From contig NC_057711.1 of NCBI RefSeq assembly GCF_004010195.1, positions 140,306,912 to 140,370,911 of the forward strand: a DNA stretch of 64,000 nucleotides, written 5' to 3'. Made by a program: the position numbers and the translations under genes. The DNA comes from Chiloscyllium plagiosum. Lineage: Eukaryota. Shown piece after piece: positions 10,170 through 63,862 of this stretch (positions within the stretch are counted from its first letter, which is position 1; each line of letters opens with the position of its first letter). The notes under the pieces were generated by a model that had not been told where the DNA came from, made no database searches, and saw nothing but the letters and a program-made list of their open reading frames with translations.

Positions 10170-10647
10170 TGAAAGTTCATTGCTGCATTGCCTCTTCCTA
10201 ATGTCACGTCCTCCTTGGGGACCCTGCAGGCTTCAAGACTCAATATTGACTTTAATAATTTTAGGGCCTTTGCATTTCTCTCCACCTCCTTCCCTCACAC
10301 TCATACACCAGGCCTTGTTGTCATATGGGCTGCTTTTATCACAGCCAACCCATTTCCACCCATTAATGGTTCCCCTTAGCAGCTATTCTTTCTTCCACGC
10401 TCATCATTATCCATTCCTTGGTCTGCCCCAACTGTTGTTCTCTTTCACTGGGCTCTATCTTCACCTATTGTTAACTCCTTCCACCTCCCTGCACTCCTGT
10501 CCCCAGCATATATACACCCAACCTTTTCTGAACGACTGTCAGTTCTGAAGAAGGATTGCTGGACCCCGAAACATTGACTCTGCTTTCTCAGTTAGAGGGC
10601 TGCCAGACCTGCTGAGTTTCTACAGTTTTTTTTCTGTTTTTGTTTCC
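10170..10647 (+). mobile_element. Penelope-like element 3' fragment with decayed hammerhead motif
   Basis: End of the endonuclease region (LGTLQASRLNIDFNNF*) followed by a 3' UTR containing CTGAAGA at 10545 ... CGAAAC and the family tail gctgccagacctgctgagttt. Confidence 0.75.
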
Positions 10648-11399
10648 ATCCTCCTGCTTGGTTAGTTTAAATCCTTTCCAACCTATCAAACAGTCCTGGT
10701 ATTGATCCCAACACTATTGAAGTGCAAGTTATCCTGGGTACATCTACCACAGAAACCAGTCCCAATGTCAGAGCAATTTAAACCCAGCCGAGCAGGAGGG
10801 CTGGAAGTTCTGAACTTTTGTCAACCGTTTATACAATTTGGGGATTCCTGCACAAGTACAGCATTTAATTTGCTGAACTATGCTAAGACATCTCAAATAA
10901 ATAAGCTGCTCATTCTAACTTGCGTTCAAGTTGTGGTCCTGTTAGGTTAGAGGTCTGCTCACTTTAAAGAATTCCTGAAGAAAATACACTTCCTTTATGG
11001 GTGAACATATGAAATATTCTACAATGATGCAAAGAATATAAGTTATAATGATTGCCAGGTTTCAAAATACTCCAGGAATTGGACACAGGGGTCAATACAG
11101 TGGAAGGATTAAAGCACCTCTTGCCCATTTGGATATTACAGTAGCAGACAAAATTTAAAATGTAACACTAGGCAAATTAATCCCACAAATGCCCAAGGAG
11201 CAATCAATGCTTTCATGTATTATCATACAATGAGCTGCTCAAAGCAAAATGACACGATGAGGAAGACAAGAAAGTAACAATAAATCTAAATAAATTATAC
11301 TGGTAACAAAACGTTTCAATCATGTGCTAGTTGCAGATTCCTTTAATTAATGCAAGATAAGATAGTGATTCCACTTCTACAATATACAAAACAGATTGG

Positions 11400-12110
11400 C
11401 TAAAATTGTACTTAGCCTTTCTACATTAATACATAAGGTCTCGAGGAGTCTTATGGTCAAAAGTCTGTAGAAATGAATAGGGACTGGACTTGGAACTCTC
11501 ACAATGTTGGAGGGCAATTTGCCAGTAACAGTTTCAGAAAAAACCATGAAAACATGAACATCGTGATCATGAAAACTGCAGTGAAGGTCTTTTCAGCAAC
11601 GTACTCTGTGGGGTATCATAATGATTGATGAAGTGTTGAATGAAATTTTGACTGATCAACCAGACAACAAGTTGACAGCCACCCTGAAATGGATGGGTAG
11701 TTCATGCTCAGACTTCACTCCAGATGGTTGCAGGATAATGATCCTAATTACATTATCTCAAGCTCTAAACACAGGATAGAAGTAAACAAGGCATCTCAGA
11801 TGCTCATGTGCTTTGAGATGAAGGTTCAGAGGTGAAAACTGTGATGCATCAGCTGGTTGATTGTAATGTAGGAGTGATCATGACACAAAGGGTGGAGTTA
11901 TTCCATCCACAGCCAAGTAGCTAGGGTGTGTACTCAGATGGTATATACTCCAGAGGGATGTAATGATTGAAGGGACGCAACAATCATGTGCCACACAGAA
12001 AAAGTTCATGCAAGTTTAACTATTGGTCAAATGGTCAAGAAGTGAGCTGCACCAACTAGCCAAATGGGGTGCAAGTGTGGAAAATAAGAAAGTGCGTTGC
12101 AAATACTAAT
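11400..12110 (+). mobile_element. Highly decayed LTR-retrotransposon gag-like remnant
   Basis: Weak traces of a Cys-rich knuckle near 12045-12100; no intact ORF. Confidence 0.3.
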
Positions 12111-12169
12111 AATTCAGAAGTGACTGCTACATTAAAATAAAATTAAGTCTGGAGAAAAAGCCACCAAAT

Positions 12170-12226
12170 ATGGGGAGAAAAGAAAAGAAAAAGAAAAGGA
12201 AAAGAAAAAGGAGAAAAGAGAGAGAG
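12170..12226. repeat. (GAAAA)n/(GA)n simple repeat
   Basis: Read directly from the sequence. Confidence 0.85.
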
Positions 12227-60319: not shown

Positions 60320-61452
60320 CGAGAGAGTGGTGCTGGAAAAGCACAACAGGTCAGGAAGCATCTGAGGAGCAGGAGGATCAACATTTCCAGCAAAAGCACT
60401 TCATCAGAAATGAGGCTGGGAGCTTCAGTTGGAGAGATAAATGGGAGGGAGGTGGGGCTGGGGCATTGATGCCATGGGTTTGGAGGGTCCCGAGGTGGAA
60501 GATGAGGCGTTCTTCCTCCAGGCATTGGGTGGTGAGGGAGTGAGGAGGTCCAGGACCTGCATGTCCTTGGCAGAGTGGGTGAGGGAGTTGAAGTGTTCAG
60601 CCACAGGGCAGTGGGGTTGGTTGGTGCGGGTGTCCCAGAGATGTTCTCTGAAGCACTTTATGAATAGATGTCCTATCTCGCCAATGTAGAGGAGACCACA
60701 TCAGGAGCAACAGATACAGTAAATGACATGTGTGGAAGGGCAGGTGAAACTTTGATGGATGTGGAAGTTTCCTTTGGGGCGTTGGATGGAGGTGACGGTT
60801 TTGCAATTCCTGTGGCAAGGGAAGGTAATAGGAGGGGAGGGTGGGTTGCTGGGGGATGTGCACCTGGCAAGGTAGTTGCAGAGGAAATGGTCTTTATGGA
60901 AAGCAGATAGGCGTGGGGAGGGAAGTATATCTCCAATGGTGGGGTCCATTTGTAGGTGGCGAATGGGTCCCAGGTTCAATTCCAGCCTCGGGCAACTGTC
61001 TGTGTGGAGTTTGCACACTCTCCCCGTGTCTGCCTGTGTTTCCTCCGAGTGCTCCGGTTTCCTCCCACAGTCCACAAATGTGCAGGTCAGGTGAATTGGC
61101 CATGCTAAATTGCCCGTAGTGTTAGGTGCATTAATCAGAGGGAAATGGGTCCGGGTGGGTTACTCTTTGGCAGGTCAGTGTGGACTTGTTGGGCCGAAGG
61201 GCCTGTTTCCAAACTGTAGGGAATCTAATCTAATCTAAATGGTGGAGGATGATGTGATGTATACAGAGGTTGGTGTGATGGAAGGTGAGGACCGGGGCAA
61301 TCTGGGCTTGTTGCAGTTGGAGGAGTGGGGTTCGAGGGCAGAGGTGCAGGAAGTGGTTGAGTTGCACTGGTGGGCATCATCAACCATGTGGGAGGGAAAT
61401 TGCGGTCTTTAAAGAAGGAGGCCATCTGATGTGTTCTGTGGTGGAACTGGTC
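60320..61452 (-). mobile_element. 5'-truncated Penelope-like retroelement (GIY-YIG endonuclease region plus terminal repeat)
   Basis: FTCPSTHVIYCICCS...CGLLYIGET...FREH...PVAEHFN...LIFHLGTLQTHGIN across frameshifts; hammerhead-like CTGATGA...GAAAT at 60380-60407; 16-bp TSD ctgaattgtcatgggt (60304-60319 and 61453-61468). Confidence 0.88.
60967..61238 (+). mobile_element. 5'-truncated HE1-type SINE nested in the Penelope element
   Basis: Family motifs and (ctaat)n tail. Confidence 0.85.
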
Positions 61453-61848
61453 CTGAATTGTCATGGGTACTAATTTCCAGTTGAGGAATTAAACCAAGAA
61501 CCCATCCGTTCCCTCGGACTAATATGAAAGACTTTGATGGCACTCATTGAAACAACTGGGAAATTCTCCTGATCAATACTTATCTGTCTACTACCATCTC
61601 GAAATTTGACTGTCTAGACATTATCTCATTTGTTGTTTCTGGGGCATGATATTGTTACACTCCACTTCAATTGAATATTTCATTACATGCAAATCTTTCT
61701 TGGAGTTATGATGGCCAGGTCTTCCAGCTGTCCAATTTAGGATCTTTATCATTGGCCTTTCCGGGTAATTTCTATCAATATTACCTTTCTAACAACTAAT
61801 AGCCACAATAACGCTGTTTCTTTAGAACCCAGACTTCGGTTAAAAAAC

Positions 61849-62126
61849 GATTAGATAACTTACGGCGTGGAAACAGGCACTTCGGCCCAACAAGTCTACT
61901 CCGAAGAGCAACCCACCCAGACCCATTCCCCTACACCTAACACTACGGGCAATTTACCATAGCTAATTCACCTAACCTGCACATTTTTGGACTGTGGGAG
62001 GGAAACCGGAGCAAACCCATGCAGACACGGGGAGAATGTGCAAACTCCACACAGGCAGTTGCCTGAGGTGGGAATTGAACCGGGTCTCTAGCGCTGTGAG
62101 GCAGCAATGCTAACCACTGTGCCGCC
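61849..62126 (-). mobile_element. HE1-type SINE
   Basis: Close to 54316-54622. Confidence 0.85.
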
Positions 62127-63642
62127 GTTGTAATTGTATCGCTAACGAGAAAGGGATGTCCAGTCAAACCCAGCGAGACTCTCTGCAGTTAAATATTTCA
62201 GATACTGGTCCATAATAGGTTGTGCCTCAAGCATATGGATTTGCCAGTTCCTCAGGAGGGTGGAGGGTTCAAATGGCCTCTGAACACTCTGTGGGCGGGT
62301 CTTCACTATTCCGGGCAATATCAATGACTGGAAACTCTCCGGGAGATCAAAGCAACAGCAACGTGACGACGTGGGGGAGCTTGGTGTACTATCTGGTTGT
62401 TCACGGTCCTTAACAGTGAATGAATCACCAGTGATGTTGGCGCCATACCGTGATTAACGATAACAAAAGTCCTCTCAAACAACTGTAAGGAACCATTACC
62501 AACACGAGGTGTATGCAGCTTCTCCTGTGACAGGGACCTTATTCTAACTCAAAGACATTTTCTGTATCAGTTTTGTAAAAGTAAACTTTGCGTGGAGTCT
62601 ACAGCCTCGGTTGATGAACTGTGCAAGTGGGGTAGTTTTATTGAAGCAAATTGTTTCCAGCCCCGCTGTTATATTAATTAATGTAAAAGACAGAACTCCC
62701 ATCGTCACTCTGTTTGTCAAAGATAAATGACCGGCATTAATCAGCCCATAACACCTATCAAGCCCCTACCAAAGTCCCTCCTCCCTTTAAATCGAAATGA
62801 GGAGTGAATGTCCCATCTATTGTATAACAATCCACGACAGATGTCCTTGTGCTGAGACTCAGCAACAGATCTCCCACCAAGGCACAACATCTGCTCTAAG
62901 TCCATTTACTCCAGGAAACAGAGGAGGGGAAAATTGCTCTTTAATTCATGCAGAAACCCAACAGACACTGCCTTCCCCCGTCAACAAATATTCTGTGACT
63001 CACTGGTTTAAACGTAAGCTAATCTGGTATCTAACAATACTAGTAAAATAGAGAAAGAGTAACAAAACACTTTTAAAAAATATTTTAGCCCCACCAGGTC
63101 AATTGCCATTTGGAAAGGAACAAATTGAGATTCTGAGGGTCAGATGTGACCTGCAAAAAATGAAAACGAATATTCTGATATGTAGGGCCAGCAGCACTGA
63201 AGGTGACTGTAAAAGAATAGCACTATTAAATGGGTCAAAAGTACAAAGTCCAGAATCAAGACGCAGCTGTCCCGTTGTAAAACATTTTCATTCCTGCACT
63301 ATATCTCAGTTCTGTAAATAGAAAGACCTTCTATTTACACTATGCACCTTCACATTCCCAAACCCTTAACAGCCACTGAATTGGTGCTTTTTTATTGTAT
63401 GCTTTGTAGGCAAGTGTAGCAATCAATTGCACACAGTAAGTTCTCAAACATCAAATAGATAAATGACGAGTTAATCTTTTAGATGAATGCTAAAGATCTT
63501 ATGGCACTATTTGAAAGAGTGAGTCTCAGTTAACATCTGAGAGAGAATGAGTTTATGTGATGCCTGAGTTTATGTGATGCCTTTCACAAGCAGGCTGCTG
63601 CACAAGCCTTATAGTTAATTATGTGCATTTCAAAAAATAGTT

Positions 63643-63862
63643 AAAAACCAAAGGAACTGTGGATGCTGTAAATCAGAAACAAAAATAACAATTGCTGGAA
63701 AAGATCAACAGGCCTGGCAGCATCAATGGAGGTAAATTAGAGTTAATATTTCAGGTTCAGTTCTGAGGAAGGGTCACTCACACCCAAAATGTTAACTCTG
63801 ATTTCTCTCCACAGTTGCTGCCAGACCTGCTGAGCTTTTCCAGCAATTTCTATTTTTGTTTC
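63643..63862. mobile_element. Older Penelope-derived inverted-repeat insertion (family 2-like)
   Basis: Diverged arms; AGTT-CTGAGGA-AGGGT...ACCC-AAAATGTT-AACT; degenerate TSD ttcaaaaaatagtta / ttcaaattatagtca. Confidence 0.75.

What the first reader, a model, noticed from the sequence alone, without database searches (positions are those of the whole stretch)
10545..63795. About 10 minimal hammerhead-ribozyme motifs carried by Penelope-like insertions in Pax5 introns
Seen: the pattern CTGANGA-A-[stem II hairpin]-GAAA-x-x-TH, intact or decayed, occurs near 10545, 12920, 13793, 18120, 18829/18884, 20147, 30322, 59766/59803, 60380 and 63763. It falls into three families with different stem II sequences (GGGC/GCCC, GGGTC/GACCC, GGAGC/GCTYY), so the pairing is kept while the sequence changes. 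Stem III is reduced to a 4-nt palindrome (ACGU or AGCU). The 60380 copy is contiguous with a GIY-YIG endonuclease remnant. Established: Penelope-like elements carry minimal type I hammerheads that are thought to cleave as dimers. Inference: this is a high-copy shark ribozyme-retroelement system. The class is known, but these families may be uncharacterised.
Basis: partly seen in the sequence, partly recalled or inferred. Interest (0 to 1): 0.75.

Follow-up and report, generated by a model that had tools for sequence, protein, structure and literature searches.

The report
Penelope retrotransposon stubs with decayed hammerheads
The ribozyme-like motifs in this shark Pax5 gene are real but ordinary: they are mostly broken end-stubs of a known jumping gene (Penelope-like), and the only two intact ones sit inside mirror-image insertions predicted to fold them shut, so they likely do not cut the Pax5 RNA.

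Summary
Observation largely confirmed; the reading as a possibly new ribozyme system is too strong. The window holds 12 insertion sites of Penelope-like element (PLE) ends in two Pax5 introns. Eleven were examined, with 17 hammerhead-bearing arms. The motif matches the published minimal PLE hammerhead. One copy continues into a GIY-YIG/RT remnant 68% identical to a bamboo-shark protein.

Only 2 of 17 arms keep an intact core and stem II. There the hairpin is predicted to beat the ribozyme fold by 28-41 kcal/mol. No tandem pair able to form a dimer exists.

About 35,000 contigs per sequencing run match one family; non-CpG variation avoids core and stem. All arms span the cut site, so templates were likely uncut RNA. 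Tail-less ends share 2-7 nt with the target duplication, which favours priming from both nicked strands.

Motif, inverted layout and tail are published. This scan noted the same shark elements, and this mechanism, many times on other DNA. Verdict: new members of a known kind, low interest.

The parts
24914..25089 (-). Pax5 coding exon (176 nt, AG/GT borders), the only canonical Pax5 exon found in the window; the host pre-mRNA is the minus strand
10209..10650 (+). Family B 5'-truncated PLE end: probable endonuclease C-terminus, 3' UTR, decayed hammerhead at 10545 (stem II and III broken); ends at the tail-less site
   Evidence: (tblastx E=0.015 to L046, weak)
12823..12957 (-). Family A stub with tail; the minus arm lacks CUGANGA; a 20-nt inverted stub on plus carries CUGAUGU; joined through TTC/GAA; no TSD found
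13679..13921 (.). Family A palindrome: arms 13729-13814/13825-13910 (97%), intact hammerhead on minus (C3 at 13820, predicted cut after GUC at 13793), 36-nt tail, 17-bp TSD with 1 mismatch
17980..18230 (.). Family B palindrome: 93-nt arms (91%), core decayed (UUGACAA), 30-nt tail, exact 13-bp TSD
18726..18980 (.). Family C palindrome: 98-nt arms (90%), both hammerheads broken (U16.1 changed on minus; core box changed on plus), 28-nt tail, 14-bp TSD with 1 mismatch
20144..20265 (+). Family B solo stub starting 3 nt before CUGAAGA; stem II broken; no clear TSD
30309..30470 (+). Family B solo stub with tail; G8 changed; TSD 11 bp exact (15 with 1 mismatch)
35595..35705 (-).
41500..41600 (-). Heavily decayed family B-like copy (profile E=0.005); not counted among the 17 arms
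59690..59941 (.). Family A palindrome: 94-nt arms (95%), intact hammerhead on minus (C3 at 59793, GUU), G12 changed on plus, 33-nt tail, exact 15-bp TSD
60304..61468 (-). 5'-truncated PLE: RT-thumb remnant 61455-61236, a SINE inserted at about 60960-61237, linker and GIY-YIG remnant 60964-60471, decayed hammerhead at 60407; ends at the tail-less site; exact 16-bp TSD (60304/61453)
63628..63874 (.). Family B palindrome, older: arms 81% complementary, G12 changed, 32-nt tail, 16-bp TSD with 3 mismatches

Best explanation
These are short, mostly decayed insertions of the hammerhead-bearing ends of Penelope-like retrotransposons in Pax5 introns, and they are predicted to be catalytically silent where they sit. 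Shown: PLE identity, target-site duplications, asymmetric tail, head-to-head layout, decay of 15 of 17 arms. Inferred: the element's protein likely nicks both DNA strands 13-17 nt apart. Each freed 3' end would prime reverse transcription at one of two internal RNA sites about 30 nt apart, some 90-125 nt downstream of the hammerhead. The cDNAs would run through the uncut ribozyme, stop near its front edge and be joined head to head (palindrome), or only one is kept (solo stub). The ribozyme was likely under selection in the source elements and decays neutrally after insertion. In either direction of read-through the antisense arm is transcribed first, so the hammerhead would be paired as it emerges.
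For: PLE protein: the remnant is 68% identical to P0003 (E=9e-54), which carries GIY-YIG and RT matches below Pfam cut-off and a CxxxxCxxC linker. TSDs of 11-17 bp at 7 of 11 sites; 0 of 400 random spots gave an exact repeat of 11 or more. Tails of 28-36 nt at 5 of 5 full palindromes, matching the 30-40-bp tail in PMC8557442. Tail-less ends overlap the TSD by 3, 3, 7, 2, 4 and 2 nt at 6 of 6 scorable sites (read by eye; rough chance 1.5e-7). The 60407 copy ends at the tail-less site with a TSD and no inverted arm, so that site can serve as a first priming site. All 17 arms include sequence 5' of the cut site; the 15 truncated ones begin about -8 to +13 from C3 (by eye). Opposite-strand joints at 59785/59797 recur in 13, 5 and 5 contigs of three DNA runs. 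Folding: hairpin favoured by 27.9, 41.0 and 39.6 kcal/mol. Variation across 34,283-37,258 laid contigs per run: non-CpG variants of 4% or more at 4 of 5 free positions (N7, loop II) and 0 of 14 scorable core and stem positions (p=0.001), while core CpG sites decay at 9-20%. PMC11167929 reports cleavage and extension of both strands, two RT start sites that bound the tail, and insertion from uncut RNA.
Against: Core and stem are not significantly more conserved than the 3' flank (0 of 14 against 3 of 17, p=0.23). The CUGA box lay too near the stretch end to be scored, and contig depth is a crude frequency. Four of 11 sites have no clear TSD. A fold-back (self-priming) route gives the same centre structure: the 12920 and 13820 junctions fit a 3-4-bp mini-hairpin at the ribozyme's front, and PMC3846280 favours self-priming. 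Microhomology at the tail-bearing end could not be scored. No activity was measured, and folding energies ignore proteins and co-transcriptional splicing.
Confidence: 0.8

Rival explanations
1. Same elements, but the mirror arm is made by fold-back: one cDNA turns on a short hairpin at the ribozyme's front and copies itself.
For: Junctions at 12920 (TTC/GAA) and 13820 (about ATGA) fit a 3-4-bp hairpin with a 5-nt loop; the 12920-type joint recurs in DNA runs; self-priming is proposed in PMC3846280.
Against: At 59793 and 18857 both arms reach upstream of C3 with no such loop. Short arms stop at one aligned position, and the 60407 copy uses that end with no inverted arm.
Confidence: 0.3
2. A working dispersed ribozyme system: intronic hammerheads cleave Pax5 pre-mRNA as dimers, or with protein help, and affect the gene.
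For: The two intact motifs are both on the Pax5 sense strand; same-strand pairs lie 614 and 874 nt apart; PLE hammerheads cleave weakly as dimers (PMC4209133) or with the element's protein (PMC11167929).
Against: 2 of 17 arms intact; each same-strand partner is broken; stem II probability below 1e-11 in the whole inserts; family A stem I has only 3 pairs and a U-U mismatch; core CpGs decay across copies.
Confidence: 0.05
3. A separate non-autonomous palindromic family (MITE- or retrozyme-like) that moves as a unit.
For: Five similar 200-250-bp palindromes with TSDs in 64 kb; high copy number.
Against: Centres differ between copies of one family, one arm has a tail, solo arms and an ORF-bearing copy share the same ends; no tandem hammerhead repeats.
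Confidence: 0.07

Closest known systems
Minimal hammerheads (min-HHR) in pLTRs of metazoan PLEs (Cervera and de la Pena 2014, PMC4209133; parts 1-2 of 4 read)
   Same: Core boxes, extra base between 9 and 10.1, G10.1-C11.1, palindromic 15.2-16.2 without helix III, several families per genome, mostly single motifs, some dual motifs on opposite strands 100-700 bp apart; reported in fish Xena, Poseidon and Neptune elements.
   Different: Sharks are not named in the parts read; helix II here is 4-5 bp (7-8 in Schistosoma); the opposite-strand pairs here abut within about 30 nt.
EN+ PLE insertions with inverted 5'-truncated copy, tail and TSD (PMC8557442 and PMC3846280; passages read)
   Same: Head-to-head inverted pLTR, 30-40-bp tail on one end, TSD, frequent 5' truncation, Neptune-type cysteine linker before GIY-YIG.
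   Different: Here the direct arm is itself cut back to the ribozyme, giving ORF-less palindromes of about 200 bp; TSDs are 11-17 bp against 8-10 bp in Adineta.
PAc (Poseidon of Anolis) in vitro mechanism (Frangieh et al. 2024, PMC11167929; parts 1-2 of 4 read)
   Same: Two internal RT start sites that bound the tail, about 110 nt into the region after the hammerhead; both strands cut and extended; uncut RNA is the template.
   Different: [quoted passage not shown]
Animal non-LTR retrozymes (bioRxiv 10.64898/2026.07.22.740005; part 1 of 5 and passages read)
   Same: Type I hammerheads derived from PLE pLTRs; reported in one chondrichthyan.
   Different: Retrozymes are head-to-tail tandem repeats; these copies are solo or head-to-head.

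Membership tests
PLE minimal type I hammerhead | Core CUGANGA...GAAA..UH around stem II | tested here: met
   Intact in 2 of 17 arms; majority letters across family A copies restore it
PLE minimal type I hammerhead | Extra base between 9 and 10.1, and G10.1-C11.1 pair | tested here: met
   Extra A and G-C in all three families
PLE minimal type I hammerhead | Palindromic 15.2-16.2 with no helix III | tested here: met
   ACGU in A and B; AGC(U) in C, complete only on the 18884 arm
PLE minimal type I hammerhead | Short helix I | tested here: met
   B: AGUU/AACU and AGCU/AGCU (compensatory); A: 3 pairs plus U-U. In 104 distinct outside motifs, pairs 1-4 are 83/85/71/46% Watson-Crick against 54/41/36/27% shuffled (relatedness not corrected)
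PLE minimal type I hammerhead | Lies in the pLTR, downstream of the endonuclease | tested here: met
   60407 copy; weak for 10545; same layout in 11 of 14 outside loci with a protein hit; no protein link for family C
PLE minimal type I hammerhead | Self-cleavage as a dimer or with protein | not testable with these tools
   No assay; RNA reads show no start or end pile-up, a weak test
EN+ PLE (Neptune type) | RT followed by C-terminal GIY-YIG | tested here: met
   Remnants at 61455-61236 and 60964-60471 match P0003; P0003 has RVT_1 and GIY-YIG matches below cut-off
EN+ PLE (Neptune type) | CX2-5CxxC linker before the endonuclease | tested here: inconclusive
   Present in P0003; the window copy has lost the third cysteine; no phylogeny built
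EN+ PLE (Neptune type) | Inverted 5'-truncated copy, tail, TSD | tested here: met
   5 full palindromes with 28-36-nt tails; TSD at 7 of 11 sites
Non-LTR retrozyme | Head-to-tail tandem units each with a hammerhead | tested here: not met
   None of 6 TRF rows covers a motif
MITE (definition recalled) | Symmetric terminal inverted repeats around a fixed interior | tested here: not met
   Asymmetric tail and copy-specific centres

The most novel reading that the evidence does not exclude
Shark PLE palindromes are direct footprints of two-ended target priming: both nicked strands prime on uncut element RNA at the two tail-defining sites and run off at a transcript start just before the hammerhead. 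The element thereby writes self-silencing ribozyme hairpins into introns by the tens of thousands, which would explain the inverted pLTR and tail of the whole class and supply an abundant intronic double-stranded RNA source.
Probability: 0.45. Interest if true: 0.5.

Novelty: new member of a known kind. Interest (0 to 1): 0.24.

Why it matters
As a ribozyme finding it matters little: the motif, its tie to PLEs and the inverted layout are published, and these copies are mostly fossils. The value is mechanistic. Very short, TSD-bounded inserts record both ends of the reaction and so allow a test of how PLEs build inverted ends and tails, which PMC8557442 and PMC11167929 treat as unresolved. They also warn that motif counts overstate working ribozymes. 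If transcribed, the hairpins would be candidate ADAR or siRNA substrates (the lizard Penelope is reported as heavily edited in PMC5625713, passages read).

Tried and rejected
No genome is held for this window, so no genome-wide search or covariation model was possible. Rfam: no hammerhead family at E<=1. Pfam on 236 of 239 stop-free frames of 62 aa or more found no PAX or GIY-YIG domain; the Pax5 exon and the endonuclease were found by motif and homology instead. Viral contigs: 0 pattern matches. Metagenome scan: 121 loci, none similar to the shark elements beyond the motif; used only as an outside test of the motif. Sequencing runs: no RNA holder listed for 24000-26000. RNA run X21 laid 1,677 and 1,533 reads in both orientations with no start or end pile-up; fragmented single-cell reads cannot show cleavage; X22 laid 0. 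Extra A>G and T>C letters in X21 were considered as editing and rejected as evidence, because other changes rose too and both classes lay mostly in one read orientation. The 41574 profile hit seemed to start at the cut site, but a decayed core lies upstream. A cap-derived extra G precedes only 1 of 3 arms starting at -4: inconclusive. Co-folding two 43-nt motifs did not give the hammerhead dimer as the minimum-energy fold; the energy model cannot represent the core, so this is uninformative. Paper searches 'Penelope+shark+palindrom' (4 papers, none on topic), 'Penelope-like+twin priming' (3, listing only), 'hammerhead ribozyme+cartilaginous+retrotranspos' (0) and 'Penelope+inverted+both strands+pLTR' (3) found no description of these shark families. 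Lunse et al. (PMC5785218) is not held and was seen only as a title. Repeat databases and the papers' supplements (alignments in PMC4209133, family tables of the bioRxiv preprint) were not seen and may list shark families.
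Full report
Setting. The window is vertebrate DNA (39.5% GC, one gap of 95 N). A 176-nt exon at 24914-25089 on the minus strand encodes 59 residues 100% identical to Pax5 of Mobula, Carcharodon and Chiloscyllium. tblastn of full-length shark Pax5 proteins found no other canonical exon in the rows seen (output cut in the middle). All elements therefore lie in the two flanking introns, by inference, and host pre-mRNA is the minus strand.

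Observation. Every coordinate named is a hammerhead-like motif. A strict descriptor finds 2 hits (13820-, 59793-) against 0.05 per shuffle in 40 shuffles; relaxed versions give 8 against 1.3 and 14 against 5.9. BLAST and a profile built from 11 window arms give 11 clear insertion sites with 17 arms, plus one very decayed copy near 41500-41600. Lesions: 10545, 20147 and 60407 have broken stem II and III; 18120 and 30322 read UGACAA (G8 lost, consistent with CpG decay); 59803 and 63763 have lost G12; 18857 has lost U16.1; 18884 has a changed core box; the remaining arms are truncated inside the motif.

What they belong to. Upstream of the 60407 motif the minus strand encodes a broken linker and GIY-YIG endonuclease, 68% identical to a Chiloscyllium protein (P0003, E=9e-54) that has RT and GIY-YIG matches and a CxxxxCxxC linker. 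The remnant continues past an inserted SINE to 61455, and the whole is bounded by an exact 16-bp duplication. A weak match to an endonuclease C-terminus lies upstream of 10545 (E=0.015). Families A and B align over their full 3' part and are sister lineages, probably Neptune-type (linker criterion from PMC8557442; no tree built). Family C is unrelated in sequence and has no protein link in the window.

Five sites are head-to-head palindromes with arms of 86-98 nt at 81-97% complementarity. One arm carries a 28-36-nt tail and the insert is flanked by a 13-17-bp direct repeat. TSDs were found at 7 of 11 sites and not at 10545, 12920, 20147 and 35700; 0 of 400 random spots gave an exact repeat of 11 or more. 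This is the inverted-copy-plus-tail layout of PMC8557442 and PMC3846280, and PMC4209133 already mentions dual motifs on opposite strands. It is not shark-specific: 18 of 99 testable outside motifs had an inverted copy within 400 nt upstream (16 loci shown, with more scattered centres).

Is the motif a real hammerhead? In 104 distinct motifs from 121 metagenome loci, picked by a pattern that did not include stem I, the first four stem I pairs are Watson-Crick in 83, 85, 71 and 46% against 54, 41, 36 and 27% in shuffles; the fifth pair is not above the shuffle maximum (related sequences inflate this). In 11 of 14 such loci with a PLE protein hit, the motif lies 179-250 nt after the last matched endonuclease residue on the same strand. 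In the shark families stem II changes with pairing kept, and B-type stem I shows AGUU/AACU against AGCU/AGCU. Laying three DNA runs on 59738-59797 gave 37,258, 34,283 and 34,418 contigs, one run from a second species; contigs are not copies, but the family is clearly very abundant. Non-CpG variants of 4% or more fall on 4 of 5 free positions and 0 of 14 scorable core and stem positions (p=0.001), while CpG positions inside the core decay at 9-20%. The pattern fits selection on source elements and neutral decay of inserted copies.

Would they cut here? Both intact motifs are on the Pax5 sense strand, but inside palindromes. Forcing stem II and an open core costs 27.9 (13820) and 41.0 (59793) kcal/mol; stem II probability is below 1e-11 in the whole insert and near 1 in the sense arm alone. 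In a head-to-head palindrome the antisense arm is always transcribed first. The same-strand neighbours needed for a dimer are broken. PLE minimal hammerheads are reported inactive as monomers and weak as dimers (PMC4209133), or protein-dependent (PMC11167929). RNA run X21 shows reads in both orientations and no pile-up of ends, a weak test. Cleavage of Pax5 RNA is therefore unlikely; this is predicted, not measured.

How they arose (inferred). All 17 arms span the cut site, so the template was likely uncut. The 15 truncated arms begin about -8 to +13 from C3, several at -3 or -4. The native upstream sequences TCATTC and TCAGTT resemble an initiator with its A at -4 (consensus recalled, untested). 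Tail-less ends align at one position across A and B and overlap the TSD by 2-7 nt in 6 of 6 scorable cases. The 60407 copy ends there with a TSD and no mirror arm. Together with the in vitro finding that a PLE protein extends both strands from two start sites bounding the tail (PMC11167929), this favours priming from both nicked strands (about 0.55) over fold-back (about 0.3). Fold-back remains compatible with the 12920 and 13820 junctions and is the published proposal (PMC3846280). The two-ended-priming wording and the capped-start idea came from earlier notes of this scan. I tested the first on this window's ends; the second was inconclusive. Notes on U6 fusions at the cut site elsewhere in this genome were not tested.

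Verdict. Four targeted paper searches found no description of these shark families; repeat databases and supplements were not seen. New member of a known kind; interest 0.24.

Noticed in passing
window 53605-53860: A 99% perfect palindrome with 109-nt arms and a 3-nt spacer, followed by an exact 35-nt tandem duplication of its right end; no hammerhead and no match to the PLE arms. Looks like a recent fold-back duplication.
   Followed up: no
window 17691-17750 (-): Matches 16 of 20 residues of an alternative segment in an annotated Chiloscyllium Pax5 isoform (P0009) and follows a TTCTAG acceptor-like site; possibly an alternative exon from a repeat.
   Followed up: partly
window 36449-37013 (-): Integrase core and zinc-binding remnants of an LTR retroelement (Pfam rve E=9e-7, Integrase_H2C2 E=1e-4).
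   Followed up: no
window 14479-14814 (+) and repeat families D5, D6, D10, D11, D16: RT remnant (RVT_1 E=3e-4) and many LINE-like 3' ends; the 13820 palindrome may sit inside one of them.
   Followed up: no
window 7818-8117, 32338-32600, 34878-35180, 50695-50950, 54314-54617, 60960-61237, 61849-62084: An abundant SINE-like family of about 300 nt; one copy interrupts the PLE remnant and so is younger than it.
   Followed up: partly
window 8698-9811 and 13032-13449: Degenerate repeats of about 20-22 nt (TACAATCA-rich) in two patches.
   Followed up: no
window 18866-18875: The spacer of the family C palindrome holds a short extra copy of the hammerhead's first bases (CCTGATGA on minus), suggesting a template jump during formation.
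   Followed up: partly
window 31661-31882 (+): Weak C2H2 zinc-finger match (E=8e-5, below cut-off); nature unknown.
   Followed up: no
L051, L058, L089, L113: Non-shark PLE-type hammerheads with near-perfect palindromes centred 8-15 nt before C3, the same layout in unrelated hosts.
   Followed up: partly
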